Assembly: GCA_001189155.1 (NCBI GenBank)
Contig: LFCP01000004.1
Location: 1,998 to 65,997 of the forward strand
DNA: 64,000 nt
Reading direction: 5' to 3'
DNA from: Parcubacteria bacterium C7867-006
Lineage (GTDB): Bacteria; Patescibacteriota; Minisyncoccia; Phycocordibacterales; DATDWN01
Of the stretch, positions 31,336 to 62,239 are shown piece by piece. Under the pieces are notes generated by a model. The model had not been told where the DNA came from. It saw only the letters and a list, made by a program, of their open reading frames with translations, and did no database searches. How positions within the stretch are numbered: position 1 is the stretch's first letter; each line of letters opens with the position of its first letter. Both the position numbers and the translations under genes were made by a program.

Positions 31336-32811
31336 CTATTTCGTCAAGGTATTTATTAAGGTCACCTTATTTGTGTCTGTTGGAACGGTTTGATTCCAGA
31401 ATGGCTGTGTTTCAATCCATGTTTCTTTTATTGTTGGGTACTTAGAAACAATGTTTTTAGCCTCTTTCTTTGAAAGACCCAGGAGTTCTGATTTTATTTT
31501 GTTTTCATCAACAACCCAAACGAATTGAGGAACTCCTTTTAGAGAAAAAGTTATAGAATTAGCCGTATTTATATCCACTGGAGATTGTGTTGCATATTCA
31601 AAATTCAATGAATCTAGGTTGGTTATTTTTACAACATCATTAGTTGAATCAGGAGATAGTTTTGCTAAAAGAGTTCTAGAAAGAACTCCTTTATCAAAAA
31701 TAACAGCAGAGGCAACACCTTTCTTTTTCAAAACCGCACCACCAGTTGAGCTATTAGTTTGTGTAATAGCTTCAAGTTTGTAAGTTAGTGATGATGAGAA
31801 TAAAACATAATCTGCCGGTATTTGAGCTGTTATATCTTTTGCTAGGGTCTCTTTTAGAGTTTTTTCCAATTCTGTATTAGTTTGGTTTATTATAGCTTCC
31901 GAAACTATCTTTTGCATACCAGAAAATCCTCCTGTCATTTCAGTTTTTGATCTAGCGTATACTTTCGTATATTTAGGATCGCCTTTAAAGCCTGGAATGG
32001 TGAAATCCTTATATGAAATATTGTATTCAGCCCCTGTTTTGTCTGCTTCAACTACAGCATCAACACTACCAGCCACTGTTTTACCCGACTTTACTGATGT
32101 ACCTGGCACTGTAACTGGACTTACAAGCCTATATATAAGGCCTTCTGGAGTCTCAAACCTTGTTGTTGCTACTAGTTTTTGAGATTGAGAGCTATATGTA
32201 TTGTATATTGTTATTGTACCTCTAGCTTTTTTATCAACTCGGGCTTCACCTGTAGCTTCTACACTTTTTTCTACTTCTTTAACCACTGTGACAACCTGAA
32301 AACCTAACCCACCAGACGAGATATCTTTTTTGGCAGTAAACGAATCGTTTAGAGGGATACTTATATTTTTTGGAGTTATTGTTATTTTTGCACTTTTGAA
32401 AAATGCAGATATTCCGAATGCTCCAAGGATAACTAATACAAAAACACTGGTATATAAAATCTTTTTACTAGGTTTTTTGGGTTCATCAAACTCGTATTTA
32501 TAAGACGAATTAATTATTGGCGGTTTATTGTTCCCAACAGGAGCTTCTACTCTAACTGGGGCTGATACCTCAGTTTTTATTGATACGGGTCTAGAAAAAT
32601 CCTCTAGCATAGGTTCAGGTTTAGGAGCTTCTTCTCTATTTATTTTAGGCGCAGTTCTTCTTGGAGCAATATCTAGTCCAGCTGATCTAGATGGTAATTT
32701 TACGTTACGTATTGATTTTTTAGGTGGAATTACGTCTTGTACCAAATTTTTATTAGCCATTTTCTTTTGAAAAATATTTTTAGAAAAATACCTTCTATCA
32801 TTGTAACGCAA
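31336..32811 (-). CDS. hypothetical bitopic membrane protein (cytoplasmic Pro/Lys-rich N-terminus, one TM, large extracytoplasmic domain)
   Basis: TM helix ILYTSVFVLVILGAFGISAFF. No motif recognised. Downstream of an FtsA/PilM-like gene. Confidence 0.4.
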   Translation of the reverse strand: MRYNDRRYFSKNIFQKKMANKNLVQDVIPPKKSIRNVKLPSRSAGLDIAPRRTAPKINREEAPKPEPMLEDFSRPVSIKTEVSAPVRVEAPVGNNKPPIINSSYKYEFDEPKKPSKKILYTSVFVLVILGAFGISAFFKSAKITITPKNISIPLNDSFTAKKDISSGGLGFQVVTVVKEVEKSVEATGEARVDKKARGTITIYNTYSSQSQKLVATTRFETPEGLIYRLVSPVTVPGTSVKSGKTVAGSVDAVVEADKTGAEYNISYKDFTIPGFKGDPKYTKVYARSKTEMTGGFSGMQKIVSEAIINQTNTELEKTLKETLAKDITAQIPADYVLFSSSLTYKLEAITQTNSSTGGAVLKKKGVASAVIFDKGVLSRTLLAKLSPDSTNDVVKITNLDSLNFEYATQSPVDINTANSITFSLKGVPQFVWVVDENKIKSELLGLSKKEAKNIVSKYPTIKETWIETQPFWNQTVPTDTNKVTLINTLTK

Positions 32812-32845
32812 AGACCTATATTTGCCAACGATAAAATCCTGTGGA

Positions 32846-34051
32846 TTATTTTGTGTTTATTAGTTTTTTATAAAAAAGAGCTACAAAAGTAATGAACTCG
32901 TCTATCTTTCCTACAGCTTGGTTTTTGATAAATTTAGAAACAACAATTTCATCTATTATATTTATGTTTAACATTTTTCTAAAAATAGAAGTTGTATCAG
33001 TTTTTGGCATTTTCAAAAATTCTGTATATATGTGTACAACATCACTATCTGACATTAAGTATATATTTGAAGGTAAATTAATAGTTGGAGATAGTTCCAC
33101 TAAAGCATTTTCTAGATATATAGCCCATTCTTTTTCAATTTCAGCTATAACCTCGTGCATTTTTTGATTTACAGAATCATCAGACTTGTCGGAGCTAAAC
33201 ATGTGGAGCATAGACTCCGCTATCTCAGGAGTAACGTCAAAATTTTTACTTATTTGTCTTAATATGAAATTTCTACCAGAAGGTATAGATACATTTTGTT
33301 TAATAACAAAATCCTGTACAAGTGTTAGATCGGTTACATCTCCGGAGACATCACATATCAAGAAATCCCCACCTGCGCTGAAAAAATCTCTAACAACCGC
33401 AAAAGAGACTACTGGGAATGTATGAAACTTGAAATCATCTTTGTGTATGTGCGCATATCTTAGGACAATATCTTGTATTTTATATACAAGGCCCACATCC
33501 ATAGCCGACATACAAAGAAAAGCCTCTAAGCTTTTTGTTTTTTTATCTAATATATTTTGAAGTTCATAGCCATTAATTTTTGTATGTAAAACATTTTTCT
33601 CTATAACCTCAAAAGCATCAGGTCTTTCAGGATAAAGTTCTGATTTAAATATGTTTTCTTCCTGTGAAATTACATCATTTAAAAATGATTCCGTAACAAT
33701 AAAATCCTTCTCGTGAGAAAGTGAAAGATGTTTAGTTTTTATCGCAAACCATGGAGATGAGAAAGATATAATTCCACCAGAAAGCTTTTTTGATTTATTA
33801 TTCCAGTATTTATGATTAAAACCTTCTTTTACGAGTTCTTTTAGTTGTAAATCTAATATGGATAGTAGAGATTCTATTAGCCGATTAGCATCTGCTTTGT
33901 CCCCGACAGGATGTGTTGCTGTTTTAGAGTACAAAAAAGTAGGTAATTCTTCAGCATTAAAAACTACCATTGCTGATGTAACTGTACTGCTACCAACATC
34001 AATAACGAGAGAAACTTTTTCTTTTTCATTCCCAAATGAGAATATAGACAT
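32846..34051 (-). CDS. actin-fold ATPase of the FtsA/PilM family
   Basis: N-terminal LVIDVGSSTVTSAM phosphate-1 motif, DVSGDVTDLTLV phosphate-2-like motif, and SIPSGRNFI resembling FtsA GG-motif. Confidence 0.55.
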   Translation of the reverse strand: MSIFSFGNEKEKVSLVIDVGSSTVTSAMVVFNAEELPTFLYSKTATHPVGDKADANRLIESLLSILDLQLKELVKEGFNHKYWNNKSKKLSGGIISFSSPWFAIKTKHLSLSHEKDFIVTESFLNDVISQEENIFKSELYPERPDAFEVIEKNVLHTKINGYELQNILDKKTKSLEAFLCMSAMDVGLVYKIQDIVLRYAHIHKDDFKFHTFPVVSFAVVRDFFSAGGDFLICDVSGDVTDLTLVQDFVIKQNVSIPSGRNFILRQISKNFDVTPEIAESMLHMFSSDKSDDSVNQKMHEVIAEIEKEWAIYLENALVELSPTINLPSNIYLMSDSDVVHIYTEFLKMPKTDTTSIFRKMLNINIIDEIVVSKFIKNQAVGKIDEFITFVALFYKKLINTK

Positions 34052-34071
34052 ACATTTATTCTAACACAATT

Positions 34072-35826
34072 TTACTCCAAGACAGCTTTGATGCGCCTGA
34101 CGCCAGCCGAAACAGCCTCCTCTTTTGCAATTTTGAATCGTCCAAGCACCCCAGTATTTTCTACATGAGGACCTCCACAGAACTCTTTTGAGTAGGCAGA
34201 GTCTAATGAGTCTCCAATATAATAAACATTTACTTCATCTGGATACTTCTCTCCAAAAAAGTGTAGGGCTCCAGTTTTTTCAGCTTCCTCTTTTTTCATA
34301 ACCTCCTTTTTAACAGGTAGATTTAATTGAATTTTTTCATTAACAATATCTTCAACTTTTTTCTTTTCCTCATCGGTCATTTTTCTTTCAAAGGCAAAAT
34401 CGAAACGCAGTCTTTCTGTTGTTATATTACTTCCTTTTTGTTGTACTGATTCACCTAAAACATCCCTCAGGGCTTGGTGTAGTAGGTGTGTTGCTGTATG
34501 GTATTTTGTTTCTACTTCTCCAGTTCCAGCTAAACCTCCTTTGAATTTTTGTTCACTACCTGCGCGAGAAAGTTCTTGGTGCTTTTTAAATTCCTCGTTA
34601 AATTTTTCTTCGTCTATAACAGTTCCTCTTTCTTTGGCTAACTCTTTTGTTATCTCAATAGGAAAACCATATGTTGTAAACAAAACAAACGGGTCAATAC
34701 CTTTTTCAAATTGTTTTATTCCATCCTCTAGAGTTTTTGTAAATTTATTAACCTCTTCTTCTATTTTTTGTGTAACTGAAGTAAGGTTTTGCTTAATTTC
34801 TGGATAAGAGGCCTCATATTTGTCAGAGATTATATTAACTAAACTAGATATTTCCTGATTATCTAGCTTTCTTTTATCTGTTTTAAGAACCGCTCTCCTT
34901 AAAAGCCGCCTCAAAATATACCCTCTATCTGTATTTGATGGGCTGACTCCGTCTACAATCATAAATACAGCAGTTCTTATATGATCAGCAATTATTCTTT
35001 GATTTTTTAAACTTCCTGTTAGATTTTTTGTATTTTTTATTAAATCTGAGAATATATCTGTTTCAAAAACACTAGATTTACCCTGAACAACAGCAATCAT
35101 TCTTTCAAATCCAGCGCCAGTATCAACATTTTTGTTTTCTAGTTTACCAACAACTTTACCATCCTTTGACAAAAACTCCATAAATACGTTGTTCCAAATC
35201 TCAACCACTTTTTGTTCATCATCAGCTTTTAAATACTGTTCCAAACTCATCCCCTCAGTTATGTTTCCTGTCAAATCATAAAACATTTCTGTATCTGGTC
35301 CACATGGTCCATTTGGTCCAGCACTCCACCAGTTTTTATTTGCAGGCCGAAAATATATTCGCTCTCCCGTGACTCCATTTTTCTCAAAAATTTCTTTCCA
35401 GATAGTGGCCGACTCTTCATCTCGAGGTGCATTCTCATCCCCTTCAAAACAAGTAACATAAAGTCTCTGAGGATCTAGCCCAAAACCCTCTTCCTTTGAT
35501 GTTAGTAACTCATAGCTCCAGTTTATTGACTCAGATTTCCAATAATCACCCAAAGACCAGTTACCAAGCATCTCAAAAAAAGTAAGATGTGTATTGTCTC
35601 CAACTTCATCTATATCGTTTGTTCTTACGCATTTTTGTACGTCAGCAAGCCTTGTCCCTTGTGGGTGCTTTTCCCCAAGTAGGTACGGGACTAAAGGTTG
35701 CATTCCAGCCGTGTTGAACAAAACAGAAGGATCATTTTCTGGAACAAGAGATGCGGATGGAATTATGGCGTGGCCTCTTTTTTCAAAGAAAGTAAGAAAC
35801 CTCTGTCTAATCTCGTTTGATGTCAT
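34072..35826 (-). CDS. alaS: alanyl-tRNA synthetase, truncated form lacking the C-terminal C-Ala domain
   Basis: N-terminal MTSNEIRQRFLTFFEKRGH plus the editing-domain HxxxH (HTATHLLH) and CxxxH (CGGPHV) motifs. About 585 aa. Confidence 0.85.
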   Translation of the reverse strand: MTSNEIRQRFLTFFEKRGHAIIPSASLVPENDPSVLFNTAGMQPLVPYLLGEKHPQGTRLADVQKCVRTNDIDEVGDNTHLTFFEMLGNWSLGDYWKSESINWSYELLTSKEEGFGLDPQRLYVTCFEGDENAPRDEESATIWKEIFEKNGVTGERIYFRPANKNWWSAGPNGPCGPDTEMFYDLTGNITEGMSLEQYLKADDEQKVVEIWNNVFMEFLSKDGKVVGKLENKNVDTGAGFERMIAVVQGKSSVFETDIFSDLIKNTKNLTGSLKNQRIIADHIRTAVFMIVDGVSPSNTDRGYILRRLLRRAVLKTDKRKLDNQEISSLVNIISDKYEASYPEIKQNLTSVTQKIEEEVNKFTKTLEDGIKQFEKGIDPFVLFTTYGFPIEITKELAKERGTVIDEEKFNEEFKKHQELSRAGSEQKFKGGLAGTGEVETKYHTATHLLHQALRDVLGESVQQKGSNITTERLRFDFAFERKMTDEEKKKVEDIVNEKIQLNLPVKKEVMKKEEAEKTGALHFFGEKYPDEVNVYYIGDSLDSAYSKEFCGGPHVENTGVLGRFKIAKEEAVSAGVRRIKAVLE

Positions 35827-35856
35827 AGCGTTATAATTACACAAAATGAACTTATT

Positions 35857-36474
35857 TTAAAGATACTGTATATATTTCTTCAATACTTGAAAATCCTGAA
35901 CCAAAGTATCTTTATTTGAGCCATTATATAAAGTAACAGCCGGATGATATAAAGGTATAATCACAACTGAACCAAAATAGGTATCAATCTTGAACTCTTT
36001 TCCATGTAAATCACCGATAGTTCCGAGTTTATCTGAAAGATTAAAGCGATTAAATATATATTCCATTGAAAATCTACCCAAAGTAGCAATAACTTTTGGT
36101 TGTATTATATCAATCTGTTCGTCCAAAAAAGGAGCATAAATTTTTATTTCCTCTGGGCTTGGGTCTCTATTCTCTGGGGGTCTATCTTTTACTATGTTAG
36201 TTATATAAACATCACTTCTATTTAAACTAATCGATTCGAGCATTTCATCTAAAACTTTTCCAGATTTACCACAAAAAGGTCTGGCTGTTTCAGCTTCATT
36301 TTTTCCAGGGGCCTCACCAATAAACATTATGTGAGCAACAAGACTCCCCTCTCCAACAACAGGAAAATATTTATTTTGAACTCTGTATTCATATAACGGG
36401 GATTCTTTAAGATGTAGAACTTGATCCCTAACATTTTTCATCTTATCGAACTTTTCTTCAAGTGAAAATGACAT
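35857..36474 (-). CDS. uracil-DNA glycosylase, family 4
   Basis: FIGEAPGKNEAETARPFCGKSGKVLD, the family-4 UDG motif GEAPG..E ... F.G..G. Confidence 0.7.
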   Translation of the reverse strand: MSFSLEEKFDKMKNVRDQVLHLKESPLYEYRVQNKYFPVVGEGSLVAHIMFIGEAPGKNEAETARPFCGKSGKVLDEMLESISLNRSDVYITNIVKDRPPENRDPSPEEIKIYAPFLDEQIDIIQPKVIATLGRFSMEYIFNRFNLSDKLGTIGDLHGKEFKIDTYFGSVVIIPLYHPAVTLYNGSNKDTLVQDFQVLKKYIQYL

Positions 36475-36478
36475 ATTT

Positions 36479-37111
36479 TTATTTTTTATTCTTCTCTTTG
36501 CTCTTATAAGAAACCGCTACCTTTTTGTTATCAAACCACCAAGCATTTGAGTCTGTCTTCATTATTTCGTTTACAATTTTTTTAGCATTTTCTGTTTTTA
36601 TTCTTTTTACCGCATGCTCGGCCCACTTTAATGCTCTGGTATTACCTTGATCAACTTGTTCTTTTAAAGCCATTATCCATTCAATATTATCTGCATCTTT
36701 AACCAAAATAGACTCTTTACTTTGCCTATCTTCATATTCCTCAATGATTCCAAAAATTTCTTCACCAAAAGATATTGAGTCTGCTATGTCACGATGTGCA
36801 GCTTCTTCTTTTCTTTCAACATATTTTTGATGAACATAGTTCAAATCAGATATTCTGGTTTCTGATATATCATGAAATAAACACATTTCTAAAACTTTTG
36901 AAATGTTGACTGTACCGTCCATCATGGCTAAGGCATATCCTATATAACAAACGCGGTTTATGTGTTCAGCCACAGATTGATCACCGGTTCCTAAAAAGTG
37001 AAAACCACTTCTTGGAGTTTTTGATAAAATTCCAACCTCAAAAAGGAAATTTGCTGTATTTTTATAATCACTTTTTGATTTTTTATTACTTTTTTTCATT
37101 TTATAACGCAT
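36479..37111 (-). CDS. HD-domain phosphohydrolase, YfbR-like 5'-deoxynucleotidase family
   Basis: FLFEVGILSKTPRSGFHFLG ... ESVAEH-like (QSVAEH) ... LFHDISE. HD motif present. Confidence 0.6.
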   Translation of the reverse strand: MRYKMKKSNKKSKSDYKNTANFLFEVGILSKTPRSGFHFLGTGDQSVAEHINRVCYIGYALAMMDGTVNISKVLEMCLFHDISETRISDLNYVHQKYVERKEEAAHRDIADSISFGEEIFGIIEEYEDRQSKESILVKDADNIEWIMALKEQVDQGNTRALKWAEHAVKRIKTENAKKIVNEIMKTDSNAWWFDNKKVAVSYKSKEKNKK

Positions 37112-37934
37112 CTATCTCATCTATCACTTTTTTTATTTCAGTATCCTTAATCCCAATATCAGAAAGTAATTCTGGCTTTTCTATAATAGATTTACACAAA
37201 ACAATACCTTGATCCAAAAGAGCTTTTTTCTCATGAGTATTTAGGCTAACCAAACAAGTAAGTGGATGAAGTTTTGATTCTATTATTAGATCATGAAGAT
37301 TACCTATTGGAGGATAGTTCCAACCAATCATTCTAATGCCTCCCTGACAGCTACCGTATTCTATGGCTGTAGAAGTGAATTTTGTATTTGTAACAAGCCA
37401 CGCCTCATCCAACTCTCTTTCCTTTCCATAATTAAATTTCATTTTTCGTAAATCATCAAAACGAGCCTTAACATACAAAATAACTTTCAAATCAGATTTT
37501 GTCCCACCTTCATTGTGGAATTTAGCCTCAACCATAATAAGCTCCTTATCATTCCAAGCAACTACATCTATTTCGTGAGCAACACAAGAGCCTTTTACTA
37601 TTTGTCCTGTTTTTGCTTCAAAACCTTTATTTCTAAATATCTCTGCTACAAAATCCTCAAAAGGAAAACCTGAGGGTCCCAATTCTGAGATAGCTTTTTT
37701 TAGAGAATATTTTATTGCGATTGGTTTTTCTTCTTTATGAAGAAGCTCAAAAGCATGTTTATAAATATTATGAGTTGTAATATCTTGTTTAAGATGACCA
37801 TAAACATGGTTTATGATATCTCGAGTAGCTTTAGTAGAAGCGCCAGCACGTTTTAGAGAAAATTCTAATTTTTTTTCATCAAATGGTTCTTTTGTTCCGT
37901 CTGCTTTAATGACATAAATTGGTTCTGTATGCAT
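37101..37934 (-). CDS. ATP-cone domain fused to an Mrr-like PD-(D/E)xK restriction-endonuclease-fold domain
   Basis: N-terminal ATP-cone pattern (VIKADGTKEPFDEKKLEFSLKRAG). C-terminal FEDFVAEIFRNKGFEA ... HEIDVVAW ... IMVEAKF matches the Mrr_cat motifs (D ... E-x-K). Confidence 0.55.
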   Translation of the reverse strand: MHTEPIYVIKADGTKEPFDEKKLEFSLKRAGASTKATRDIINHVYGHLKQDITTHNIYKHAFELLHKEEKPIAIKYSLKKAISELGPSGFPFEDFVAEIFRNKGFEAKTGQIVKGSCVAHEIDVVAWNDKELIMVEAKFHNEGGTKSDLKVILYVKARFDDLRKMKFNYGKERELDEAWLVTNTKFTSTAIEYGSCQGGIRMIGWNYPPIGNLHDLIIESKLHPLTCLVSLNTHEKKALLDQGIVLCKSIIEKPELLSDIGIKDTEIKKVIDEIDAL

Positions 37935-37969
37935 AAAACCATTATCTCATATCCATGTTTTCGGGCAAA

Positions 37970-39043
37970 CTAGATAATTTTTTCAATAATACCTCCACCA
38001 AGACAGACTTCCCCATCATAAAGCACGGCTGATTGGCCTATAGCTATTCCACTTTGTGGCTCATCAAACAGTATATGGTAACCATTACCTTCTTTTTTAA
38101 CCAAACAAGACTGCTTTTGTTGTCTATATCTTATTCTGACTGAAATTTTTTTATCAATCTCTTTCTTATTTTCAGAAATAAGGTGAAGATTTTTTAGAAC
38201 AATCTCTTTTATGGAATAAACTTTGTCTGCTTCAGCTTCTTTACTTGCGACAGTTACAGTATTTTTATCTAGATTTTTCGCCACAACAAAATATCTAGGA
38301 TCATCTCCTGTCTTTTTTGTTATAGTAAAACCGTGTCGCTGGCCGATAGTTAAAAACATAGCGCCATCGTGGGTACCAATAACTTCTCCTTTAGTATTCA
38401 AAACATCTCCAGTTTCGGTTTTTATATAATGAGAAAGAAAATCTTTCATATCTATCTTTCCGATAAAACACAAACCTTGGCTATCTTTTTTGTGGGCCGT
38501 AGGAAGACCAAATTTCTCCGCCAACTTTCTGACTTCTGGCTTTGTCATATGACCTATCGGGAAAAGTGTGTGGGAAAGCTCGTGTTGTCCAAGTGTATAA
38601 ACAAAATACGACTGGTCTTTCTCTTTGTCAGTTGACTCGTGTAACTCAAATACGTTGTTATTATTCAAAATTTGAGCATAATGCCCTGTAGCAACATAGT
38701 CAGCTCCCATCTCTAGCGCTTTTCGTAAAAAAACTCCAAATTTTACATACTTATTACAAAAAACATCAGGGTTCGGCACTCGTCCATCACGATATTCACG
38801 TATCATATAATCCACCACTTCTTTTTTATATTCTGCCTCGCAATCTAGTGTAATAAAAGGGACATCTAGTGTCGCACAAACTTTCATTGCACTTCTTCTT
38901 TCTTCTCTCCAGTCACAAGGTAAAAAATCTGGTGCCCAGACCTTCAAAAATACCCCCGTTACATCATAACCTTGATTTTTAAGCAGTGCCAAAGCCACAG
39001 AAGAATCAACTCCTCCGGAGACACCAACAAACACTTTTGGCAT
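37970..39043 (-). CDS. mnmA: tRNA-specific 2-thiouridylase
   Basis: PP-loop VGVSGGVDSSVA. Start taken at MPKVFVGV. Confidence 0.85.
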   Translation of the reverse strand: MPKVFVGVSGGVDSSVALALLKNQGYDVTGVFLKVWAPDFLPCDWREERRSAMKVCATLDVPFITLDCEAEYKKEVVDYMIREYRDGRVPNPDVFCNKYVKFGVFLRKALEMGADYVATGHYAQILNNNNVFELHESTDKEKDQSYFVYTLGQHELSHTLFPIGHMTKPEVRKLAEKFGLPTAHKKDSQGLCFIGKIDMKDFLSHYIKTETGDVLNTKGEVIGTHDGAMFLTIGQRHGFTITKKTGDDPRYFVVAKNLDKNTVTVASKEAEADKVYSIKEIVLKNLHLISENKKEIDKKISVRIRYRQQKQSCLVKKEGNGYHILFDEPQSGIAIGQSAVLYDGEVCLGGGIIEKII

Positions 39044-39072
39044 TTTATTCATAACAAACTTATAACACAAAT

Positions 39073-40071
39073 TTACTGGTTTAGATAGAGTTCCTTATTT
39101 CTTTTATGTTGCTCAAACGTAGTCGCATAGTACATTTTTCCACTTTTACTTGATAAGAAATAAAGATACTTTGAATTTGTTGGATTAACAGCAGCAAATA
39201 TTGCATCTAAACCAGGATTACTTATTGGACCAGGAGGAAGACCTCTATATTTATAAGTGTTATATGGCGAGTCTATTTTTAAATCATCAGCTGTTAGTTC
39301 ATAAGTATTTTTACCATTTATATAAAGAAAAGTAGAATCCACTTGAAGAGGCATACCGATGGACAATCTTTTCCAAAGTATACCTGCAACCATTCTACGA
39401 CTTTCTGTGGTTCTGGCTTCTTCCTCTAAAATAGAAGCCATTATAATTATTTCTTTCAAACTATGGGTTGACGTCGCTATTCCACCAACAGTTTTTATTT
39501 TTTGATCAAAATTATTTTTCATCAACTCAACAACAGCTTCTGGTTTTATGGTTGGAGAAATAAAATAAGTATCAGGAAAAAGATACCCTTCATTACTTTT
39601 TGCTAACTTTAAAAATTTAGTTTTATCAAAACCAATCAAGTTGGCTTTTAAATAATCAGCTATTTGAAAGATACTCCATCCTTCAGGAATAGTGGCTTTA
39701 AATGTAACTAAATGAAACTGCCCTTCGGTTATACGATAGGCCAGCTCAAAAGAACTCTCTTTTGCATCTAATAGGTAGTCTCCTGCTATCATTTTTTTCT
39801 CCCCACCAAGCATTCTCACCGCCAACCTGAAAAAGAACGGTGATCTAATAACTTTTGAGTCATAAAGACTATTCGCTATCCCTTGAAGAGATGCTCCTTG
39901 TTGAACTACCACAACCTGACCAAGAGGAAATTCTCTTGGTTGTGTATTCATATACAAATAAAAAGAAAAAAATATAACAAAAATTAAAGAAAAGTAGAGA
40001 GAATACTTCTGTCTTTTTGGTAAAGACCTTATATTTTTAATTAATTCAGATAATATTACGGAATATTTCAT
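39073..40071 (-). CDS. mltG: endolytic murein transglycosylase (YceG/MltG family)
   Basis: N-terminal TM and the C-terminal YceG signature YNTYKYRGLPPGPISNPGLDAIFAAVNP. Confidence 0.8.
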   Translation of the reverse strand: MKYSVILSELIKNIRSLPKRQKYSLYFSLIFVIFFSFYLYMNTQPREFPLGQVVVVQQGASLQGIANSLYDSKVIRSPFFFRLAVRMLGGEKKMIAGDYLLDAKESSFELAYRITEGQFHLVTFKATIPEGWSIFQIADYLKANLIGFDKTKFLKLAKSNEGYLFPDTYFISPTIKPEAVVELMKNNFDQKIKTVGGIATSTHSLKEIIIMASILEEEARTTESRRMVAGILWKRLSIGMPLQVDSTFLYINGKNTYELTADDLKIDSPYNTYKYRGLPPGPISNPGLDAIFAAVNPTNSKYLYFLSSKSGKMYYATTFEQHKRNKELYLNQ

Positions 40072-41381
40072 TATACAGGAAGATTTGTAGGTGCTTGTGA
40101 TTTCTTTGAATCAATACGAGTAAATGTAGGTGTTGTAGATACTCCACCAGGAAGATGGAATAGAGTAGCCAGCTCTTCTGTGTTTAAAACAAAATGAGGA
40201 CTTTTAAATGGGCCATAAAAATATCCTCTGTGTTTGTATGCGTCTAACAAATACTGCTTTTCACTCTCTCTCTTTTTTAGACTTCTTGTTTTCCAAGCAA
40301 TAAAAATATTTGAAAACCTCTCATCTATACCACGAGCTGGCTTAAAACCATTTAAATGCGAGTTAAAGTGCGTTATCCCACCTATTATCCCTCCAATATT
40401 ATCAGGACTCCAAATGTCTTTAGGAGCTATATAAATTGCTCTCATACCAACATCAAAACCTTTTTTAGAAACACTTCTTGCAAGAGCTGTTACAGTTTCT
40501 TTTTCAACATCAGTTAACTGTCTTCCTGTTCCTGGAATAATTTTTCCATCTGGACCTTTTTCACCCTTAGCTTTTGTGATAATTTTATCTATCTCCACCT
40601 GAGCAGCCTCTTTCCATCTGAAATCTTTCTTTGCCCAACGATCCCAGATATCTTTTGGTCTTAAAGTTGTCCATATTTTAGCATTAGACCAAGTTTTACT
40701 TGGATCTTTTTCCTCAGCGACATGAGCACGAATAAGAATCTGAATCCAAGCCTGCTGGCCACGACCAAGACTTCCAAGGAATTCTATAAGTGGAGTCATA
40801 GGATCTATTTTGTATTCTTCATCTGGGTCTTTGTCCATTCCATAATCTATATAAGTTTTTATGGGAAAAACATCAGCTCCGGTTAGATCAAATTCAGAAG
40901 CCCATATTGAATTAACTTCTGGATTGTAGCTAGTTGGCAATGTATAGTCTGGAACTTCATATATTTCAATTCCGGGATATTGAGAATACAAATTTGCCTC
41001 TAGAACATTTTTCATTGATTTTCTTATCCAGATGAAAAAATGTACACCTCCATCAATAGAAGCTATCTCTAAAGATGTCCATGCACGAACTTTTCCTTGC
41101 CAAAATTTTTCAAACCAATTTTTCTCTCCGGCTAATTGATGAAGTGACTGTATACAAAACTCCATCGCTTTTGGAGATTTGAAAATGTCCTTTGGGAGTT
41201 TTATTTCCAAAACAATCATTGATGTTTTAGCAAAAAATAAAGCCCTAACATAGGCAACCCAAACTTCCCAGGCAATGTAAACCAAAGCAAATGGAACTAA
41301 AACATAAGCTGAGTAATACAACAGTTTAAATGTTAGGAGAAAATTTGAATTTGCAAAAAAATCTATTAGAAATGAAAACAT
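40071..41381 (-). CDS. hypothetical membrane-anchored protein (436 aa)
   Basis: N-terminal hydrophobic helices, then a soluble domain with no recognised motifs. Confidence 0.35.
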   Translation of the reverse strand: MFSFLIDFFANSNFLLTFKLLYYSAYVLVPFALVYIAWEVWVAYVRALFFAKTSMIVLEIKLPKDIFKSPKAMEFCIQSLHQLAGEKNWFEKFWQGKVRAWTSLEIASIDGGVHFFIWIRKSMKNVLEANLYSQYPGIEIYEVPDYTLPTSYNPEVNSIWASEFDLTGADVFPIKTYIDYGMDKDPDEEYKIDPMTPLIEFLGSLGRGQQAWIQILIRAHVAEEKDPSKTWSNAKIWTTLRPKDIWDRWAKKDFRWKEAAQVEIDKIITKAKGEKGPDGKIIPGTGRQLTDVEKETVTALARSVSKKGFDVGMRAIYIAPKDIWSPDNIGGIIGGITHFNSHLNGFKPARGIDERFSNIFIAWKTRSLKKRESEKQYLLDAYKHRGYFYGPFKSPHFVLNTEELATLFHLPGGVSTTPTFTRIDSKKSQAPTNLPV

Positions 41382-41438
41382 ATTTTAATTATAACTTACA
41401 TAAAAGAAAAAACCACCCCTTTAGGGTGGCTTTTTCTT

Positions 41439-42476
41439 TTATGCTATATCGTACTTTCCGTCTTTTGTTTTTTTGAAGAATTTTGGATTCTGAAGGTTTA
41501 CCATAATTGTATTTTCTTTTACATATCTCTCCTTCAATACTTTCTTAACTATATCATCCTTTGTCATTGGGCCATTTTTAGCAATAACACCTTTTATGAC
41601 ATCTTTAACTACTCCACTCATATAACCCCACTCAGACAGCGCGTAGAGTCCTCGTCCAACCAAAACGAATCTTGGATCCTTTATTAGTTCATTGTGAGTT
41701 GTTGCAACGTGCGCTTTTTTCTTAAATAGCTCTGTTATAAGTTTTGCTACCTCTCTAAAATGAATTGGAGAACCGTGTCGTCTGATAACTAGGTATGCAT
41801 AGTCTCTCATACCTTTTGCATTTATATTTGCAGATTTAGTTTTACCCCATTCACCTAGTGGATTTTTATCTATAACTTTAGATAGTTCCAACCATCGTTT
41901 TGCGATTTCTTCGTTTCTGTATTTATCAGAAACATCTTTTAGGTGTTCCAGAAACTTTTCTATCATTTCTGACTCTAGTAAAATTTCATCATCAGATAGA
42001 GTACTATATAACTGTCGTAGTGAGTAATGGATCTTTTTTGATAGATCTTTATCAATAGTCCATCTGTGTTTGAATTCCAAATCCTCTTTTTCTTTCATAA
42101 AATCCTCACCAACTGTAAGTAGGAAGTGGATTTGATTTTGAGTAGCTTTGTCTTTTGATATGTGTTTCAAAAGAGCTTCCTCGTGAATAGTAGAACCTAA
42201 ATCAGCTATTATCTTTTTTAATTCATCAAAAACTGCTTTTTCCTTTGCGTATTCTTTTGATTTTCTTATGTTTATTATTGAGTAGTTCTCAATCTGTCTA
42301 ACTCTTTCTCTAGTGATTTTATATTTTTTACCAATAGCTTCCAATGTCATTCTTTTTGTATCATTTCCGAGTCCAAATCTAGAAGTAAGAACATCCTGTG
42401 CTCTATCCCCTAAAACAGAAAGTAACCGTTTTACAACTTGCTTTGGTTTGAATGTAATTGGTGTTTTTTCACTCAT
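41439..42476 (-). CDS. hypothetical DNA-binding protein: sigma-70 region-4-like HTH (N-terminal) plus HARE-HTH-like winged helix (C-terminal)
   Basis: LEAIGKKYKITRERVRQIENYSI (region 4.2-like) and C-terminal FVLVGRGLYALSEWGY (HARE-HTH / RNAP delta-like pattern). Confidence 0.4.
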   Translation of the reverse strand: MSEKTPITFKPKQVVKRLLSVLGDRAQDVLTSRFGLGNDTKRMTLEAIGKKYKITRERVRQIENYSIINIRKSKEYAKEKAVFDELKKIIADLGSTIHEEALLKHISKDKATQNQIHFLLTVGEDFMKEKEDLEFKHRWTIDKDLSKKIHYSLRQLYSTLSDDEILLESEMIEKFLEHLKDVSDKYRNEEIAKRWLELSKVIDKNPLGEWGKTKSANINAKGMRDYAYLVIRRHGSPIHFREVAKLITELFKKKAHVATTHNELIKDPRFVLVGRGLYALSEWGYMSGVVKDVIKGVIAKNGPMTKDDIVKKVLKERYVKENTIMVNLQNPKFFKKTKDGKYDIA

Positions 42477-42585
42477 AATTTTGATAATTTATGTATAAAT
42501 TAGCTATTGGTATTGGGCTAATGTCAATTATTTGTATCATTTACCTCAGGTAAAGTCAAGCCTTGACCAAAACAGCCAAAAAAGA

Positions 42586-45162
42586 CTAAAAAACTACCAG
42601 ATTTACGAGTTTATCTTTGATAAAAATCACCTTTTTTATCTCTTTTTCCATTATCCATTTTTCAACATCAGGAAGAGCCTTTATTTTTTCTAGTACAACG
42701 TTTTCAGATAACCCTTTAGGTAACATCGTTTCTGCTCGAACTTTGCCGTTTATCTGAATAATAAACTTAACCTCCAATTCCTCCATTTTTTTCTTACTTG
42801 CCTTTGGCCAAGCCTCCAACACAAGAAAACTTTTGTGTCCGAACATGCTCCATATTTCTTCTGTCATATGAGGAGCAAATGGATTTAATATTTTTAAGAA
42901 TAATTCAAAATCTGACTGTTTTACATATTCCATTTTTTCCATTTCATTTAACAAAATCATCATTGAAGAAACTGCTGTGTTGAAAGCAAAATTGTCTATA
43001 TCTTCAGTAACTTTTTTGATTGTTTTATGGAGTACAGATTCAAAAATTGGAGTTGATTTAGCTTTTTTGGAAACTCTTTCAGTCAATCTCCATATTCTAT
43101 CCAAAAATCTTCTAGATCCAATGATATTGTCTGTGCTCCAAGGAAGAGATGCCTCAAATGGCCCCATAAATGTCTCATAAACTCTCAGAGTATCTGCTCC
43201 ATAGTTTTTTACAACATCATCTGGATTGATGATGTTACCCCATCTTTTACTCATCTTTCTGTTATCTGGCCCCAGTATCATTCCTTGATTTTTCAAAGTC
43301 TGAAATGGTTCCTCTGTTATAACAAGTCCATAATCTTTCAAAAACTTATGCCAAAATCGTGAGTATAAAAGATGCCCTGTTGCGTGTTCTGCACCACCAA
43401 CATACATATCAACATTTTTCCAATATTTTATAGCTGATTTATCTACAAAAGCTTTTTTGTTTTTCGGATCCATGTACCGCAAAAAATACCAAGAAGAACC
43501 AGCCCAACCAGGCATAGTGTTTGTCTCAAAACCTTTTTTCATCCAAGAAGAAACACCGGCGAGTGGAGACTCTCCTGTTCCTGTAGGCATATATGATTTA
43601 ACTTCAGGAAGTTTTAGTGGAAGATCTTTTTCTTTAAGTGGAGTTATGATTCCATTTTTATCATGCATAAGAGGTATAGGCTCACCCCAGTATCTCTGTC
43701 GTGCAAAAATAGCATCTCGCATTTTATATTTTGAAACAATTTTACCACCGACTTCTTTTGTTATGCTTTTTTTACATTCTTCTGAACTGAGACCATTGAA
43801 TTTTCCAGAGTTTATCAAAAACCCTTCACCAGTTATTGGCAACTCTAAATTCCCTCTATCTTTCGGAATTATGACTTCTCTTATAGGAAGTTTGTATTTC
43901 TTTGCAAACTCATAATCTCTTTCATCAGATGCAGGTACAGCCATAATAGCTCCTGTTCCGTAGTCAGCCAAAACATAATCAGCTATCCAAACAGGAATTT
44001 CCTCGTTGTTTGCTGGGTTTATAGCTTTTATACCTCTCAACTCCACTCCAGTTTTTTCTTTTCCTTCAATTCTTTCTTCTCTAGTTTTTTTCTTTAAACT
44101 TTCAATATATTTTTTAACTTCCTCTCTGTTATCCAAAACTCCTATATGGTCATCATCTACAGCTAGAGTTACCCAAAGGTGCTCTGGAGAAAGAACCATA
44201 TAAGTCGCACCGAACAAAGTATCAGGTCTTGTTGTGAATACAGGTATAATTCCAGGTTTACCCTCCTTAAAAACTATTTTGAAAGGAATCTCTGCGCCAT
44301 CACTTTTACCAATCCAGTTTCTCTGAATTTCTTTAATATGTTCAGACCAGTCAAGTCCATTAAGACCAGTCAAAAGCCTGTCTGCATAAGCAGTAATACG
44401 CAAAAACCACTGTCGCATTTTCTTTTTCTCAACAGGAAAACCACCCCTCTCTGAAACTGGGCCATTTGGCCCATCCACTATTTCATCATTAGCCAAAACT
44501 GTTCCAAGTTTCGGTGACCAGTTCACATCACTGTATCCTTCATACGCAAGACGATATCTCATTAACATATCTTGCTTGTCTTTATCACTCATCGCTTTCC
44601 ACTCCTCTGCAGAAAAACTAGCTCTGTTATCTGTAACAGCGTTTATTTTTTTGCTTCCTTCTTTTTCAAAAATTTTTATCAGATTTTCTATTGGTTCAGC
44701 TTTGTCTGTATCTTTGTTGTACCAAGAGTTATAGATTTTAAGGAAAATCCACTGTGTCCATTTATAAAAACCTGGGTCAGTCGTGTTTACTTTTCTATCC
44801 CAATCAAAAGAAAGCCCTATGTTGTGTAGTTGCTTTTCAAAAGTTTTTATATTCATTTCAACTGCCTTTCTAGGATGAATATTATGCTCTAACGCATACT
44901 GTTCTGCGGGCAAACCAAAAGCATCATAACCCATAGGATGGAGAACATTCATCCCTTGCATTCTTTTGAAACGTGCAAAAACATCTGAGCCTATATAACC
45001 TTTTGGATGCCCAACATGGAGTCCTGTACCGCTCGGATAAGGAAACATATCAAGAACATAGTATTTCTTTTTCTTTGATTTGTTTGAGGCTTTGTAAACT
45101 TTTTTAGTAACCCACTTTTTCTGCCACTTTTTTTCTATATCTAGATGGTTGTATTCCTTCAT
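42586..45162 (-). CDS. leuS: leucyl-tRNA synthetase
   Basis: Class I HIGH-type HVGHPKGY and KMSKS motif (RKMSKRWGN). 858 aa with CP1 editing domain. Confidence 0.9.
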   Translation of the reverse strand: MKEYNHLDIEKKWQKKWVTKKVYKASNKSKKKKYYVLDMFPYPSGTGLHVGHPKGYIGSDVFARFKRMQGMNVLHPMGYDAFGLPAEQYALEHNIHPRKAVEMNIKTFEKQLHNIGLSFDWDRKVNTTDPGFYKWTQWIFLKIYNSWYNKDTDKAEPIENLIKIFEKEGSKKINAVTDNRASFSAEEWKAMSDKDKQDMLMRYRLAYEGYSDVNWSPKLGTVLANDEIVDGPNGPVSERGGFPVEKKKMRQWFLRITAYADRLLTGLNGLDWSEHIKEIQRNWIGKSDGAEIPFKIVFKEGKPGIIPVFTTRPDTLFGATYMVLSPEHLWVTLAVDDDHIGVLDNREEVKKYIESLKKKTREERIEGKEKTGVELRGIKAINPANNEEIPVWIADYVLADYGTGAIMAVPASDERDYEFAKKYKLPIREVIIPKDRGNLELPITGEGFLINSGKFNGLSSEECKKSITKEVGGKIVSKYKMRDAIFARQRYWGEPIPLMHDKNGIITPLKEKDLPLKLPEVKSYMPTGTGESPLAGVSSWMKKGFETNTMPGWAGSSWYFLRYMDPKNKKAFVDKSAIKYWKNVDMYVGGAEHATGHLLYSRFWHKFLKDYGLVITEEPFQTLKNQGMILGPDNRKMSKRWGNIINPDDVVKNYGADTLRVYETFMGPFEASLPWSTDNIIGSRRFLDRIWRLTERVSKKAKSTPIFESVLHKTIKKVTEDIDNFAFNTAVSSMMILLNEMEKMEYVKQSDFELFLKILNPFAPHMTEEIWSMFGHKSFLVLEAWPKASKKKMEELEVKFIIQINGKVRAETMLPKGLSENVVLEKIKALPDVEKWIMEKEIKKVIFIKDKLVNLVVF

Positions 45163-48492: not shown

Positions 48493-48508
48493 GCGCTCGC
48501 AGTTTTTC
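48476..48508 (+). terminator. intrinsic terminator, perfect 10-bp GC stem + T-run
   Basis: ctgcgagcgc agcaatag gcgctcgcag ttttt. Confidence 0.6.
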
Positions 48509-48516
48509 TTTAATAA

Positions 48517-48552
48517 GAAAACTCCCGAAACCTTGCTAGGGTCTCGGGAGTG
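48517..48552 (-). terminator. intrinsic terminator for the convergent minus-strand gene
   Basis: actcccgaaacc ... ggtctcgggagt stem. The minus-strand reading is followed by a U-rich run. Confidence 0.5.
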
Positions 48553-48570
48553 ACTGAGAATACTGGAGAA

Positions 48571-49410: not shown

Positions 49411-49509
49411 GTCCGTTTACCACGGACTGGGTTGAGGATTTAAAAAGAACACCTCGAAGGAGGATTATGACATGATTGTTATAATTTGTAAATATAACTA
49501 CTATTTTGT

Positions 49510-50085: not shown

Positions 50086-50094
50086 ATCTATATA

Positions 50095-50322: not shown

Positions 50323-50385
50323 ATTTTTTGAATTTTTAATTTACTTATCAAATATACTATATGCTACAATATATTCAAACAATCT

Positions 50386-60415: not shown

Positions 60416-60527
60416 ATTCTAACATTTTTACGTTTTAAAAACGAAAAACTCGCCGGGGTACGCCCGCTAGGTTAGAAAAATAAATTTCTGCAACAAAAAC
60501 ACTAAAATATAAAATCAAAAAACAAAC

Positions 60528-60556: not shown

Positions 60557-60572
60557 TTCGGACTCACCGAAA

Positions 60573-62237: not shown

Positions 62238-62239
62238 CA

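What the first reader, a model, noticed from the sequence alone, without database searches (positions are those of the whole stretch)
35857..37934. Candidate nucleotide-sensing nuclease module: ATP-cone/Mrr-like endonuclease, YfbR-like HD dNMP phosphohydrolase, family-4 UDG
Three tightly linked genes sit on the minus strand, with a reading-frame overlap of 11 nt (ATP-cone gene and HD gene) and a 4-nt gap (HD gene and UDG gene).

The first gene fuses an ATP-cone domain to a PD-(D/E)xK restriction-endonuclease-fold domain with intact D ... EAK catalytic residues. The ATP-cone is the allosteric ATP/dATP sensor of ribonucleotide reductases and NrdR.

The next two genes are an HD-superfamily 5'-deoxynucleotidase-like enzyme and a uracil-DNA glycosylase.

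The combination suggests a dNTP-pool-responsive DNA cleavage and repair system or defence system. Phage replication perturbs dNTP pools, and modified or uracil-containing DNA is a classic restriction target. I do not recognise this architecture as a described defence system.
Basis: partly seen in the sequence, partly recalled or inferred. Interest (0 to 1): 0.65.

Follow-up and report, generated by a model that had tools for sequence, protein, structure and literature searches.

The report
Conserved ATP-cone nuclease, not defence
The three genes are real, but the ATP-cone/nuclease fusion is a slowly evolving core gene in a housekeeping gene block of Parcubacteria and its HD and uracil-glycosylase neighbours vary between relatives, so it is most likely a nucleotide-gated housekeeping nuclease of unproven role, not an anti-phage system.

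Summary
OBSERVATION: confirmed. Three minus-strand genes lie at the stated coordinates:
- ATP-cone + PD-(D/E)xK (Mrr_cat) + AF1548-like C-terminal domain, 277 aa
- HD_3/YfbR-like hydrolase
- family-4 UDG

The nuclease residues E93, D123 and E136-x-K138 are invariant in 40 homologues down to 36% identity. The NrdR-type adenine-nucleotide contact residues are conserved.

INTERPRETATION: only partly supported.
- **Module:** the contiguous three-gene arrangement occurs in 6 of 70 related species, all close relatives.
- **Setting:** the stable context is a Patescibacteria housekeeping block (LeuRS, sigma-like, DUF8128, YceG, MnmA, nuclease, variable slot, AlaRS). MnmA is within 3 kb in 65 of 72 loci.
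- **Evolution:** the nuclease diverges about as slowly as MnmA.
- **Defence and mobility:** no PADLOC match beyond weak ones, no homologue in 2.9 million viral contigs or 50,697 phage records, and only 2 of 72,556 plasmids.
- **Other phyla:** in Bacteroidota and a Chlamydiota plasmid the gene heads a cassette of beta-CASP nuclease, AMP/thymidine-phosphorylase-like protein and PRPP-synthetase-like protein, among stress and energy genes.

BEST READING: an uncharacterised but already catalogued family of ATP/dATP-gated endonucleases, acting in nucleic-acid turnover or nucleotide economy. Substrate, and which nucleotide activates, are unknown. Interest is moderate.

The parts
37101..37934 (-). ACN gene: ATP-cone + PD-(D/E)xK nuclease + AF1548-like C-terminal domain, 277 aa. 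Identical to hypothetical protein AB201_01630 of Parcubacteria bacterium C7867-006.
   Evidence: AlphaFold model pLDDT 92.9, pTM 0.86.
37680..37934 (-). ATP-cone domain (about aa 1-85). K10, E16, P17, F18, K22 and L23 align with the nucleotide-contact residues K53, E59, P60, F61, K65 and L66 of E. coli NrdR.
   Evidence: Pfam PF03477, 31.8 bits. Foldseek match to the NrdR cone, rmsd about 2.1 A over 85 residues. Residue mapping. Conservation.
37320..37670 (-). PD-(D/E)xK (Mrr_cat) nuclease core (about aa 89-205) with invariant E93, H120, E121, D123, E136 and K138.
   Evidence: Pfam PF04471. Alignment A1, 40 sequences. D123/E136/K138 correspond to D38/E51/K53 predicted for AF1548 in PMC1821046; this correspondence assumes a 13-residue numbering offset that I inferred and did not verify.
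37104..37307 (-). AF1548-like C-terminal helical domain (about aa 210-277).
   Evidence: PF22357 at 21.3 bits in the window protein, below its cutoff, and 31.2 bits in the Owenweeksia homologue. Covered by the 1Y88 alignment.
36479..37111 (-). HD_3/YfbR-like HD phosphohydrolase, 210 aa, or 206 aa if it starts at 37099. A lineage-specific neighbour.
   Evidence: H...HD..E motif in 10 of 10 orthologues. Within 3 kb of ACN in only 10 of 75 species.
35857..36474 (-). Family-4 uracil-DNA glycosylase, 205 aa. Motif GEAPG present; only one cysteine.
   Evidence: Within 3 kb of ACN in 31 of 75 species, adjacent in 8.
37970..39070 (-). MnmA (tRNA 2-thiouridylase), the most constant neighbour of ACN in Patescibacteria.
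   Evidence: Within 3 kb upstream in 65 of 72 loci, and within 200 nt in 41 of 72.
34072..35844 (-). Alanyl-tRNA synthetase, the downstream anchor of the variable slot.
   Evidence: Within 3 kb downstream in 32 of 68 loci.

Best explanation
WHAT IT IS. The first gene (ACN) belongs to a large, uniform, vertically inherited family of endonucleases about 280 aa long. An N-terminal ATP-cone controls a PD-(D/E)xK catalytic core and an AF1548-type C-terminal helical domain.

SHOWN:
- The three-domain architecture.
- The invariant active site.
- The conserved nucleotide pocket.
- The housekeeping or stress-metabolic genomic settings.

INFERRED MECHANISM. ATP and/or dATP binding to the cone changes the oligomeric or conformational state, as in NrdR and ribonucleotide reductases. 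That change switches nucleic-acid cleavage on or off, tying degradation of DNA or RNA to the cell's adenylate or deoxyadenylate status.

INFERRED ROLE. The likely role is nucleic-acid turnover and nucleotide economy, not immunity. In Bacteroidota and Chlamydiota the gene heads a cassette with a beta-CASP ribonuclease-like enzyme, an AMP/thymidine-phosphorylase-like enzyme and a PRPP-synthetase-like enzyme. In Patescibacteria it is a core gene next to mnmA.

THE NEIGHBOURS. In this window the HD (dNMP-nucleotidase-like) and UDG genes are lineage-specific occupants of a variable slot between ACN and alaS. That slot often holds DNA-repair or nucleotide-hygiene genes. They may act on the same pools, but they are not obligate partners.
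For: Architecture and active site:
- Domain and structure evidence.
- E93, D123, E136 and K138 are invariant in 40 sequences down to 36% identity.
- Cone residues matching NrdR nucleotide contacts are conserved.

Family size and uniformity:
- 448 clusters (50% identity) at E<1e-30, nearly all 270-290 aa.
- At least 596 GTDB species.

Housekeeping synteny in Patescibacteria.

Divergence rate: median identity 52.6%, against MnmA 54.0% and AlaRS 59.1%, correlated with the neighbours at rho 0.43-0.59.

Cassette in Bacteroidota:
- beta-CASP is among the two genes just downstream in 39 of 61 loci.
- Phosphorylase-like 22 of 50; PRS-like 20 of 50.
- Any of these or the AAA_28 gene in 39 of 50.
- The same four-gene cassette, with overlapping junctions, lies on plasmids of Pontibacter and Criblamydia.
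- The MBL-PRS-TP trio is induced by microoxia in Bradyrhizobium (PMC6515984).

The nuclease core resembles the ligand-gated Can2, Card1 and Cdn1 nucleases.
Against: - No biochemical data exist for any member, nor for AF1548.
- Substrate (DNA or RNA) and the direction of regulation are unknown.
- Gene context in Patescibacteria is a conserved syntenic backbone, so adjacency there says little about function.
- The Bacteroidota cassette partners are absent near ACN in Patescibacteria, so function could differ between branches.
- The wider (MBL)-TP-PRS cassette is itself uncharacterised. It occurs mostly without ACN, often in copper or heavy-metal islands.
- The divergence comparison is biased, because the loci were selected by ACN similarity.
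Confidence: 0.5

Rival explanations
1. DNA-repair or recombination nuclease. ACN cleaves damaged or structured DNA (for example abasic-site intermediates after UDG, branched DNA or mismatches). The ATP-cone couples repair to dNTP availability.
For: - In Patescibacteria the ACN-to-AlaRS interval repeatedly holds UDG, a PDDEXK_1/Cas4-like nuclease, NUDIX, an Ogt-like DNA_binding_1 protein and the HD nucleotidase.
- UDG lies within 3 kb in 31 of 75 loci.
- JGI labels some members 'Holliday junction resolvase'.
- A DinB-type polymerase is nearby in L084.
Against: - The same interval also holds unrelated genes: MgtC, PepF, PCMT, peptidase M16 and an ABC transporter.
- Gene order is shuffled.
- In Bacteroidota the partners are RNA- or nucleotide-catabolic and stress genes, not repair genes.
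Confidence: 0.25
2. RNA-processing or RNA-decay endonuclease, acting on tRNA, rRNA or mRNA, and gated by ATP.
For: - Constant adjacency to mnmA and proximity to alaS and leuS in Patescibacteria.
- The Bacteroidota partner is a beta-CASP protein with an RMMBL 'RNA specificity' domain. Its best matches are aCPSF1 and Cas14.
- From my own knowledge, not checked here: the structurally related Can2 and Card1 cleave RNA as well as DNA.
Against: - The mnmA adjacency is part of a functionally mixed syntenic block that also includes YceG and DUF8128, and it is absent outside Patescibacteria.
- There is no direct evidence of RNA binding.
Confidence: 0.12
3. One reading: an anti-phage or abortive-infection system that senses dNTP-pool perturbation and cuts DNA, working with HD and UDG.
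For: - Sensor-plus-nuclease logic resembles CARF and SAVED effector nucleases. Matches to Can2, Card1, Cdn1 and CARF-PDDEXK models are weak.
- From my own knowledge: phage infection perturbs nucleotide pools.
Against: - PADLOC E-values are only about 1e-3 and cover the nuclease core alone.
- Neighbours are housekeeping.
- Position is conserved and divergence is slow and co-varies with neighbours.
- The triple occurs in only 6 of 70 species.
- No relatives in viral contigs or phages, and 2 of 72,556 plasmids.
- In other phyla the gene sits in metabolic or stress cassettes.
Confidence: 0.06
4. A non-catalytic, NrdR-like DNA-binding regulator that uses the nuclease fold only for binding.
For: - The ATP-cone is closest in sequence and fold to the NrdR cone.
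- From my own knowledge: some PD-(D/E)xK proteins are inactive binders.
Against: - All catalytic residues are invariant across more than 60% sequence divergence. That would not be expected without catalysis.
- There is no Zn-ribbon. The NrdR equivalog scores 18 bits against a cutoff of 124.65.
Confidence: 0.05

Closest known systems
AF1548 of Archaeoglobus fulgidus (PDB 1Y88; Pfam Mrr_cat + AF1548-like_C)
   Same: Homologous nuclease core and C-terminal domain (E 2e-27, 36% identity; Foldseek E 3e-14). Same D...ExK residues as predicted in PMC1821046, assuming an inferred, unverified 13-residue numbering offset.
   Different: AF1548 is 199 aa and lacks the ATP-cone. H120 is Q in AF1548. Its function has never been tested either.
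NrdR and the ATP-cones of ribonucleotide reductases
   Same: Same fold (rmsd about 2 A over 85 residues). The adenine-nucleotide contact residues are conserved. Nucleotide-driven oligomeric switching is the probable mode of action, by inference.
   Different: The output domain is a nuclease, not a Zn-ribbon DNA binder or an RNR catalytic subunit. The NrdR equivalog model is far below its cutoff.
Ligand-gated PD-(D/E)xK effector nucleases of type III CRISPR and CBASS (Can2, Card1, Cdn1; CARF-PDDEXK)
   Same: A nucleotide-sensor domain fused to a related restriction-endonuclease-fold core. Structural and profile matches to the nuclease part are weak.
   Different: The sensor is an ATP-cone, not CARF or SAVED. 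There is no linked CRISPR or cyclase. The genomic setting is housekeeping. The matches have high rmsd (10-20 A overall).
Mrr-type type IV restriction endonucleases
   Same: The catalytic domain matches Pfam Mrr_cat above its threshold.
   Different: No N-terminal modified-DNA-reading winged-helix domain. Not in a restriction or defence context.
MBL-fold hydrolase, thymidine-phosphorylase-family protein and ribose-phosphate pyrophosphokinase cassette (for example Bradyrhizobium bll3115-3117)
   Same: These are ACN's operon partners in Bacteroidota and Chlamydiota. They are induced by microoxia in Bradyrhizobium.
   Different: The cassette is absent near ACN in the window and in Patescibacteria. 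It is usually found without ACN: 127 plasmids carry the phosphorylase and 2 carry ACN.
E. coli YfbR 5'-deoxynucleotidase, and family-4 UDG
   Same: The HD gene matches HD_3 and YfbR-like profiles and keeps the H...HD..E motif. The UDG passes TIGR00758 and keeps GE(A/G)PG.
   Different: The HD protein is far below the YfbR equivalog cutoff (28 against 122 bits). The UDG lacks the four cysteines expected for the family-4 Fe-S cluster.

Membership tests
ATP-cone (PF03477) | Profile match above the curated threshold | tested here: met
   31.8 bits against a cutoff of 25.8, residues 6-69. Also met in the L076, L082 and L084 homologues.
ATP-cone (PF03477) | Four-helix cone with a beta-hairpin lid | tested here: met
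   The high-confidence model superposes on the E. coli NrdR cone at rmsd about 2.1 A over 85 residues, probability 1.00.
ATP-cone (PF03477) | Conserved adenine-nucleotide contact residues | tested here: met
   NrdR K53, E59, P60, F61, K65 and L66 align with K10, E16, P17, F18, K22 and L23. K10 is invariant; F18, K22 and L23 are at least 90% conserved.
ATP-cone (PF03477) | Actual binding of ATP or dATP, with an allosteric effect | not testable with these tools
   Needs biochemistry.
PD-(D/E)xK nuclease, Mrr_cat (PF04471) | Profile match and an intact catalytic D...(D/E)xK | tested here: met
   32.6 bits against a cutoff of 21. E93, D123, E136 and K138 are invariant in 40 sequences.
Mrr-type type IV restriction enzyme | N-terminal modified-DNA-recognition domain | tested here: not met
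   The N-terminus is an ATP-cone. No Mrr_N-type domain was found.
AF1548 family | Nuclease core plus AF1548-like C-terminal domain | tested here: met
   1Y88 aligns over residues 95-273 at E 2e-27. PF22357 is slightly below its cutoff in the window protein (21.3 against 23.9) and above it in homologues.
NrdR | Zn-ribbon DNA-binding domain plus ATP-cone; equivalog score | tested here: not met
   TIGR00244 scores 18.2 bits against a cutoff of 124.65, and only the cone part matches.
Known or candidate anti-phage defence system | Match to a defence-system protein model | tested here: not met
   PADLOC gives only E about 1e-3 to 3e-3 hits to the nuclease parts of PDC-S02, Csx1 and CARF-PDDEXK. HD and UDG have none.
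Known or candidate anti-phage defence system | Location in defence islands or mobile elements, with patchy and fast-evolving distribution | tested here: not met
   Conserved housekeeping synteny. Divergence similar to MnmA. None in 2.9 million viral contigs, none in 50,697 phages, 2 of 72,556 plasmids.
   Contiguous triple in 6 of 70 species, all at least 66% identical to the query. The position just downstream is variable. HD-centred loci show shuffled order.
CARF-nuclease effectors (Can2/Card1) | CARF sensor domain | tested here: not met
   No CARF domain by Pfam or PADLOC. Only the nuclease core resembles them.
YfbR-type 5'-deoxynucleotidase | HD_3/YfbR-like profile and the H...HD..E metal and catalytic motif | tested here: met
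   HD_3 90.2 bits; YfbR-like 33.6 bits (cutoff 25.9). Motif present in 10 of 10 orthologues.
YfbR-type 5'-deoxynucleotidase | Equivalog-level identity with E. coli YfbR | tested here: not met
   NF003009 scores 28.2 bits against a cutoff of 122. Substrate specificity is therefore unproven.
Family-4 uracil-DNA glycosylase | Family model above its cutoff, and motif A GE(A/G)PG | tested here: met
   TIGR00758 scores 190.1 bits against 125.3. Motif present in 35 of 35 orthologues.
Family-4 uracil-DNA glycosylase | Four cysteines ligating a 4Fe-4S cluster (a feature recalled from the literature) | tested here: not met
   One cysteine in the window protein. Orthologues mostly have 0-2, with a single conserved Cys column.

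The most novel reading that the evidence does not exclude
ACN would be the first nuclease shown to be controlled by an ATP-cone. It would be a core sensor of ATP or dATP status that licenses nucleic-acid breakdown. In nucleotide-auxotrophic Patescibacteria it would feed nucleotide salvage. In Bacteroidota and Chlamydiota it would head a stress-induced cassette of nuclease, beta-CASP enzyme, NMP-phosphorylase-like enzyme and PRPP-synthetase-like enzyme. This would extend ATP-cone allostery beyond ribonucleotide reduction to nucleic-acid catabolism.
Probability: 0.35. Interest if true: 0.65.

Novelty: new variant of a known kind. Interest (0 to 1): 0.42.

Why it matters
- **ATP-cone biology.** ATP-cones have been studied experimentally almost only in ribonucleotide reductases and NrdR. 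A large, strongly conserved family that couples this sensor to an intact nuclease is an untested regulatory principle. The family has thousands of proteins and at least 596 species, including culturable Cyclobacterium, Algoriphagus, Roseivirga and Pontibacter.
- **Patescibacteria physiology.** From my own knowledge, not checked here: Patescibacteria generally cannot make nucleotides de novo. A nuclease gated by adenylate or deoxyadenylate levels would be a plausible control point for living off scavenged nucleic acids.
- **A testable lead.** The link to the beta-CASP, phosphorylase and PRPP-synthetase cassette gives a concrete handle on that cassette, which is also uncharacterised.
- **A caution for defence mining.** For defence-system discovery the result is negative but useful. 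Sensor-nuclease architecture alone is not evidence of immunity.

Tried and rejected
- **Literature.** Searches for ATP-cone with nuclease, Mrr, defence, AF1548 or Patescibacteria found no description of the fusion. The only relevant item is the 2007 prediction that AF1548 is a restriction endonuclease.
- **A wrong recollection.** I suspected the Bacteroidota cluster matched the Burkholderia low-oxygen (lxa) locus. That paper lists no thymidine phosphorylase, PRPP synthetase, MBL hydrolase or ATP-cone protein, so I dropped the link. The Bradyrhizobium microoxia data do list the trio.
- **Mobile-element carriage.** The viral-contig scan and the phage search were negative.
- **Transcription signals.** The promoter and terminator scan was uninformative, at or below shuffled expectation.
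- **RNA elements.** Rfam and tRNA scans found no RNA element near the genes.
- **MnmA as partner.** I considered that adjacency to MnmA implies a tRNA function. I downgraded this because the adjacency is part of a functionally mixed syntenic backbone and is absent outside Patescibacteria.
Full report
1. THE OBSERVATION

- 37101..37934, 277 aa
- 36479..37111, 210 aa
- 35857..36474, 205 aa

The 11-nt overlap and the 4-nt gap are correct if the HD gene starts at its first ATG. An ATG at 37099, one base after the upstream stop codon, gives the 206-aa protein annotated at NCBI.

Profile searches confirm every domain call:
- Nuclease gene: ATP-cone 31.8 bits (cutoff 25.8); Mrr_cat 32.6 bits (cutoff 21).
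- HD gene: HD_3 90 bits; YfbR-like 33.6 bits.
- UDG: family-4 model TIGR00758, 190 bits against a cutoff of 125.

The nuclease and C-terminal part is homologous to the structural-genomics protein AF1548 (PDB 1Y88) at E 2e-27 over residues 95-273. The protein is identical to a hypothetical protein of Parcubacteria bacterium C7867-006.

2. THE ATP-CONE NUCLEASE (ACN) AS A PROTEIN

The family is large and uniform:
- More than 5,600 clusters (90% identity) match.
- 448 clusters (50% identity) match at E<1e-30, almost all 270-290 aa with the full architecture.

In an alignment of 40 members down to 36% identity, E93, H120, E121, D123, E136 and K138 are invariant. D123, E136 and K138 correspond to D38, E51 and K53, predicted as catalytic for AF1548 in PMC1821046. 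This mapping assumes a 13-residue numbering offset that I inferred and did not verify.

The cone is equally well kept. The residues that contact the nucleotide in E. coli NrdR are K53, E59, P60, F61, K65 and L66 (bioRxiv 10.1101/2025.03.28.645925). They align with K10, E16, P17, F18, K22 and L23. K10 is invariant, and F18, K22 and L23 are at least 90% conserved.

An AlphaFold model is confident (pLDDT 92.9, pTM 0.86). Foldseek against the PDB returns three kinds of match:
- AF1548, E 3e-14.
- The NrdR cone, rmsd about 2.1 A over 85 residues.
- More weakly, the ligand-gated CARF nucleases Cdn1, Can2 and Card1.

So an ATP-cone fused to a catalytically intact restriction-endonuclease-fold domain is solid.

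3. IS THE THREE-GENE MODULE CONSERVED? NO

A scan of one genome per GTDB species found at least 596 species with a relative. The 80 best are almost all Patescibacteria. Counts among loci with enough flank:

| Feature | Count |
|---|---|
| MnmA within 3 kb upstream | 65 of 72 |
| MnmA within 200 nt | 41 of 72 |
| YceG within 3 kb | 50 of 72 |
| DUF8128 within 3 kb | 37 of 72 |
| AlaRS within 3 kb downstream | 32 of 68 |
| UDG within 3 kb | 31 of 75 |
| UDG adjacent | 8 of 75 |
| HD within 3 kb | 10 of 75 |
| Contiguous ACN-HD-UDG | 6 of 70, all at least 66% identical to the query |

Unbiased clustering of neighbours shows a backbone: LeuRS, a sigma70_r4/HARE-HTH protein, DUF8128, YceG, MnmA, ACN, a variable slot, AlaRS, orf401, and a GlxA-like gene.

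The gene just downstream of ACN, out of 67 loci, is MgtC in 12, UDG in 9, a PDDEXK_1/Cas4-like nuclease in 8, HD in 5 and AlaRS in 4. Other slot occupants are peptidase M3, PCMT and an ABC transporter.

Starting from the HD protein gives the same picture. HD always lies between ACN and AlaRS, but in shuffled order. Its companions include UDG, PDDEXK_1, NUDIX, an Ogt-like DNA-binding protein, PepF and a 23S-rRNA-IVP gene.

The slot is therefore loosely enriched in DNA-repair and nucleotide-hygiene genes. It is not an operon of fixed composition.

About 27 co-directional genes have junctions of -11 to about +60 nt, and transcription signals are not above chance.

4. IS IT DEFENCE? VERY UNLIKELY

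- PADLOC gives only E about 1e-3 matches of the nuclease core to CARF-PDDEXK-type models. HD and UDG give nothing.
- Everything around the genes is housekeeping: four aminoacyl-tRNA synthetases, MnmA, YceG, DnaK, FtsW and YchF.
- ACN diverges as slowly as MnmA. Median identity to the window protein is 52.6%, against 54.0% for MnmA and 59.1% for AlaRS in the same 47 genomes. YceG is at 45% and DUF8128 at 42%.
- ACN divergence tracks that of its neighbours, rho 0.43-0.59. The caveat is that the loci were chosen by ACN similarity.
- No relative exists in 2.9 million viral contigs or in 50,697 phage records. Only 2 of 72,556 plasmids carry one.

5. WHAT THE OTHER BRANCH OF THE FAMILY SAYS

A second, equally conserved branch lives in Bacteroidota. 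Named members include Roseivirga, Cyclobacterium marinum, Algoriphagus ratkowskyi, Pontibacter, Fluviicola and Saprospiraceae.

In 85 such loci nearly all neighbours are co-directional. Counts among evaluable loci:

| Neighbour | Position | Count |
|---|---|---|
| beta-CASP/RMMBL nuclease (best matches aCPSF1 and Cas14) | two genes just downstream | 39 of 61 |
| Archaeal-type thymidine/AMP phosphorylase (PRK04350, above cutoff) | five genes downstream | 22 of 50 |
| PRK07199-type ribose-phosphate diphosphokinase | five genes downstream | 20 of 50 |
| AAA_28 kinase-like protein | five genes downstream | 13 of 50 |
| Any of the four above | five genes downstream | 39 of 50 |
| Universal stress protein | upstream | 22 of 67 |

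P-type ATPases, PFK, GAPDH-like and 2-hydroxyacid dehydrogenase genes surround the cluster.

The same four-gene cassette, with overlapping junctions, is annotated on a Pontibacter plasmid and on a Criblamydia (Chlamydiota) plasmid. There it lies beside phosphoketolase, acetate kinase, glycogen phosphorylase and a P-type ATPase. The Criblamydia proteins are 67-73% identical to the Owenweeksia ones, which indicates cross-phylum transfer.

The trio without ACN is far more widespread. The phosphorylase is on 127 plasmids, often in copper or heavy-metal islands. In Bradyrhizobium diazoefficiens the trio (bll3115-3117) is induced under microoxia (PMC6515984).

None of these partners is near ACN in Patescibacteria.

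6. MOST LIKELY MECHANISM

Shown:
- A cone with a preserved adenine-nucleotide pocket.
- An invariant metal-dependent nuclease site.
- Vertical, housekeeping-like inheritance in Patescibacteria.
- Operonic linkage to RNA- and nucleotide-catabolic enzymes in stress clusters elsewhere.

Inferred:
- ATP and/or dATP binding switches the enzyme's oligomeric or conformational state, as in NrdR and RNR. That gates cleavage, so that nucleic-acid breakdown follows the cell's adenylate or deoxyadenylate status.
- The products would feed exonucleases and nucleotide salvage. The partners would be the beta-CASP enzyme, phosphorylase and PRPP synthetase in Bacteroidota, and possibly the HD nucleotidase in this lineage.

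I put this at about 0.5 overall. The components differ in strength: 'not a three-gene defence module' is about 0.85, 'nucleotide-gated active nuclease' is about 0.6, and 'turnover or salvage role' is about 0.4.

Rivals:
- A dNTP-coupled DNA-repair nuclease, 0.25. The repair-rich slot supports it.
- An RNA-processing nuclease, 0.12.
- Defence, 0.06.
- A non-catalytic regulator, 0.05.

Substrate and the direction of regulation cannot be derived from sequence.

7. COMPARISON WITH KNOWN FAMILIES, AND NOVELTY

- ACN is a member of the AF1548/Mrr_cat nuclease family and carries a bona fide ATP-cone.
- It is not NrdR: it has no Zn-ribbon and scores 18 bits against a cutoff of 125.
- It is not an Mrr-type restriction enzyme: it has no modification-reading domain.
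- It is not a CARF effector.
- The architecture is already catalogued in databases. PGAP calls it 'ATP cone domain-containing protein' or 'restriction endonuclease'.
- I found no functional study of it.

I therefore rate it a new variant of a known kind: a ligand-gated nuclease with an unusual sensor.

Noticed in passing
L076:8001-12666; L169:1972-6597; L170:8995-13602: In Bacteroidota and on a Criblamydia (Chlamydiota) plasmid, ACN heads a tightly coupled cassette: ACN, beta-CASP/RMMBL nuclease, archaeal-type thymidine/AMP phosphorylase, PRK07199-type PRPP synthetase. The Criblamydia copy is 67-73% identical to the Owenweeksia one, which implies cross-phylum transfer.
   Followed up: partly
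L171:5628-9405; L172:6995-9402; L173:6956-9399: The (MBL)-phosphorylase-PRPP-synthetase cassette without ACN sits in copper and heavy-metal resistance islands on many Proteobacterial plasmids. The phosphorylase is on 127 plasmids. Why a nucleotide-metabolism pair travels with metal resistance is unexplained.
   Followed up: partly
window 35857-36474: The family-4 UDG has a single cysteine, and its Patescibacteria orthologues mostly have 0-2. It therefore cannot hold the 4Fe-4S cluster considered typical of family 4, although motif GE(A/G)PG is kept in 35 of 35.
   Followed up: partly
window 31336-45162 (minus strand): A gene backbone is conserved across many Paceibacteria-type genomes: LeuRS, sigma70_r4/HARE-HTH protein, DUF8128, YceG, MnmA, ACN, variable slot, AlaRS, a 401-aa protein with no Pfam match, and a GlxA-like 491-aa protein.
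   Followed up: partly
L040:8609-9597; L177:776-1507; L175:1-260: A PDDEXK_1/Cas4-like nuclease is a frequent first or second gene downstream of ACN in Patescibacteria (17 loci). The window lacks it. Two different PD-(D/E)xK nucleases side by side may be functionally related.
   Followed up: no
window 37101-37934 (residues C117, H120, H140, C196): Besides the catalytic residues, C117, H140 and C196 are at least 90% conserved and H120 is invariant in the 40-sequence alignment (H120 is Q in AF1548). They might form a second metal or redox site. I did not examine this on the model.
   Followed up: no
window 48000-51200 and 60000-63400: Two stretches have clearly higher G+C (0.41-0.47 against 0.33-0.36 elsewhere). 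One contains a ParB-like gene (60573-61925) next to tRNA-Ala (62165-62238). The other has long overlapping ORFs on both strands (48550-49443). Rfam finds no rRNA there. These may be foreign or mobile DNA.
   Followed up: no
window 37097-37111: The HD gene has two candidate start codons. ATG at 37111 overlaps the ACN stop by 11 nt. ATG at 37099 lies one base after the stop and is the start NCBI annotates.
   Followed up: yes
L176:3578-3961: In one relative, a 23S_rRNA_IVP (four-helix-bundle) gene is inserted between ACN and HD.
   Followed up: no
P0099; L084: Proteins 48-73% identical to the window's are labelled Nitrospira sp. and Gammaproteobacteria in MAG records. These are probably mis-binned Patescibacteria contigs or rare transfers.
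   Followed up: no
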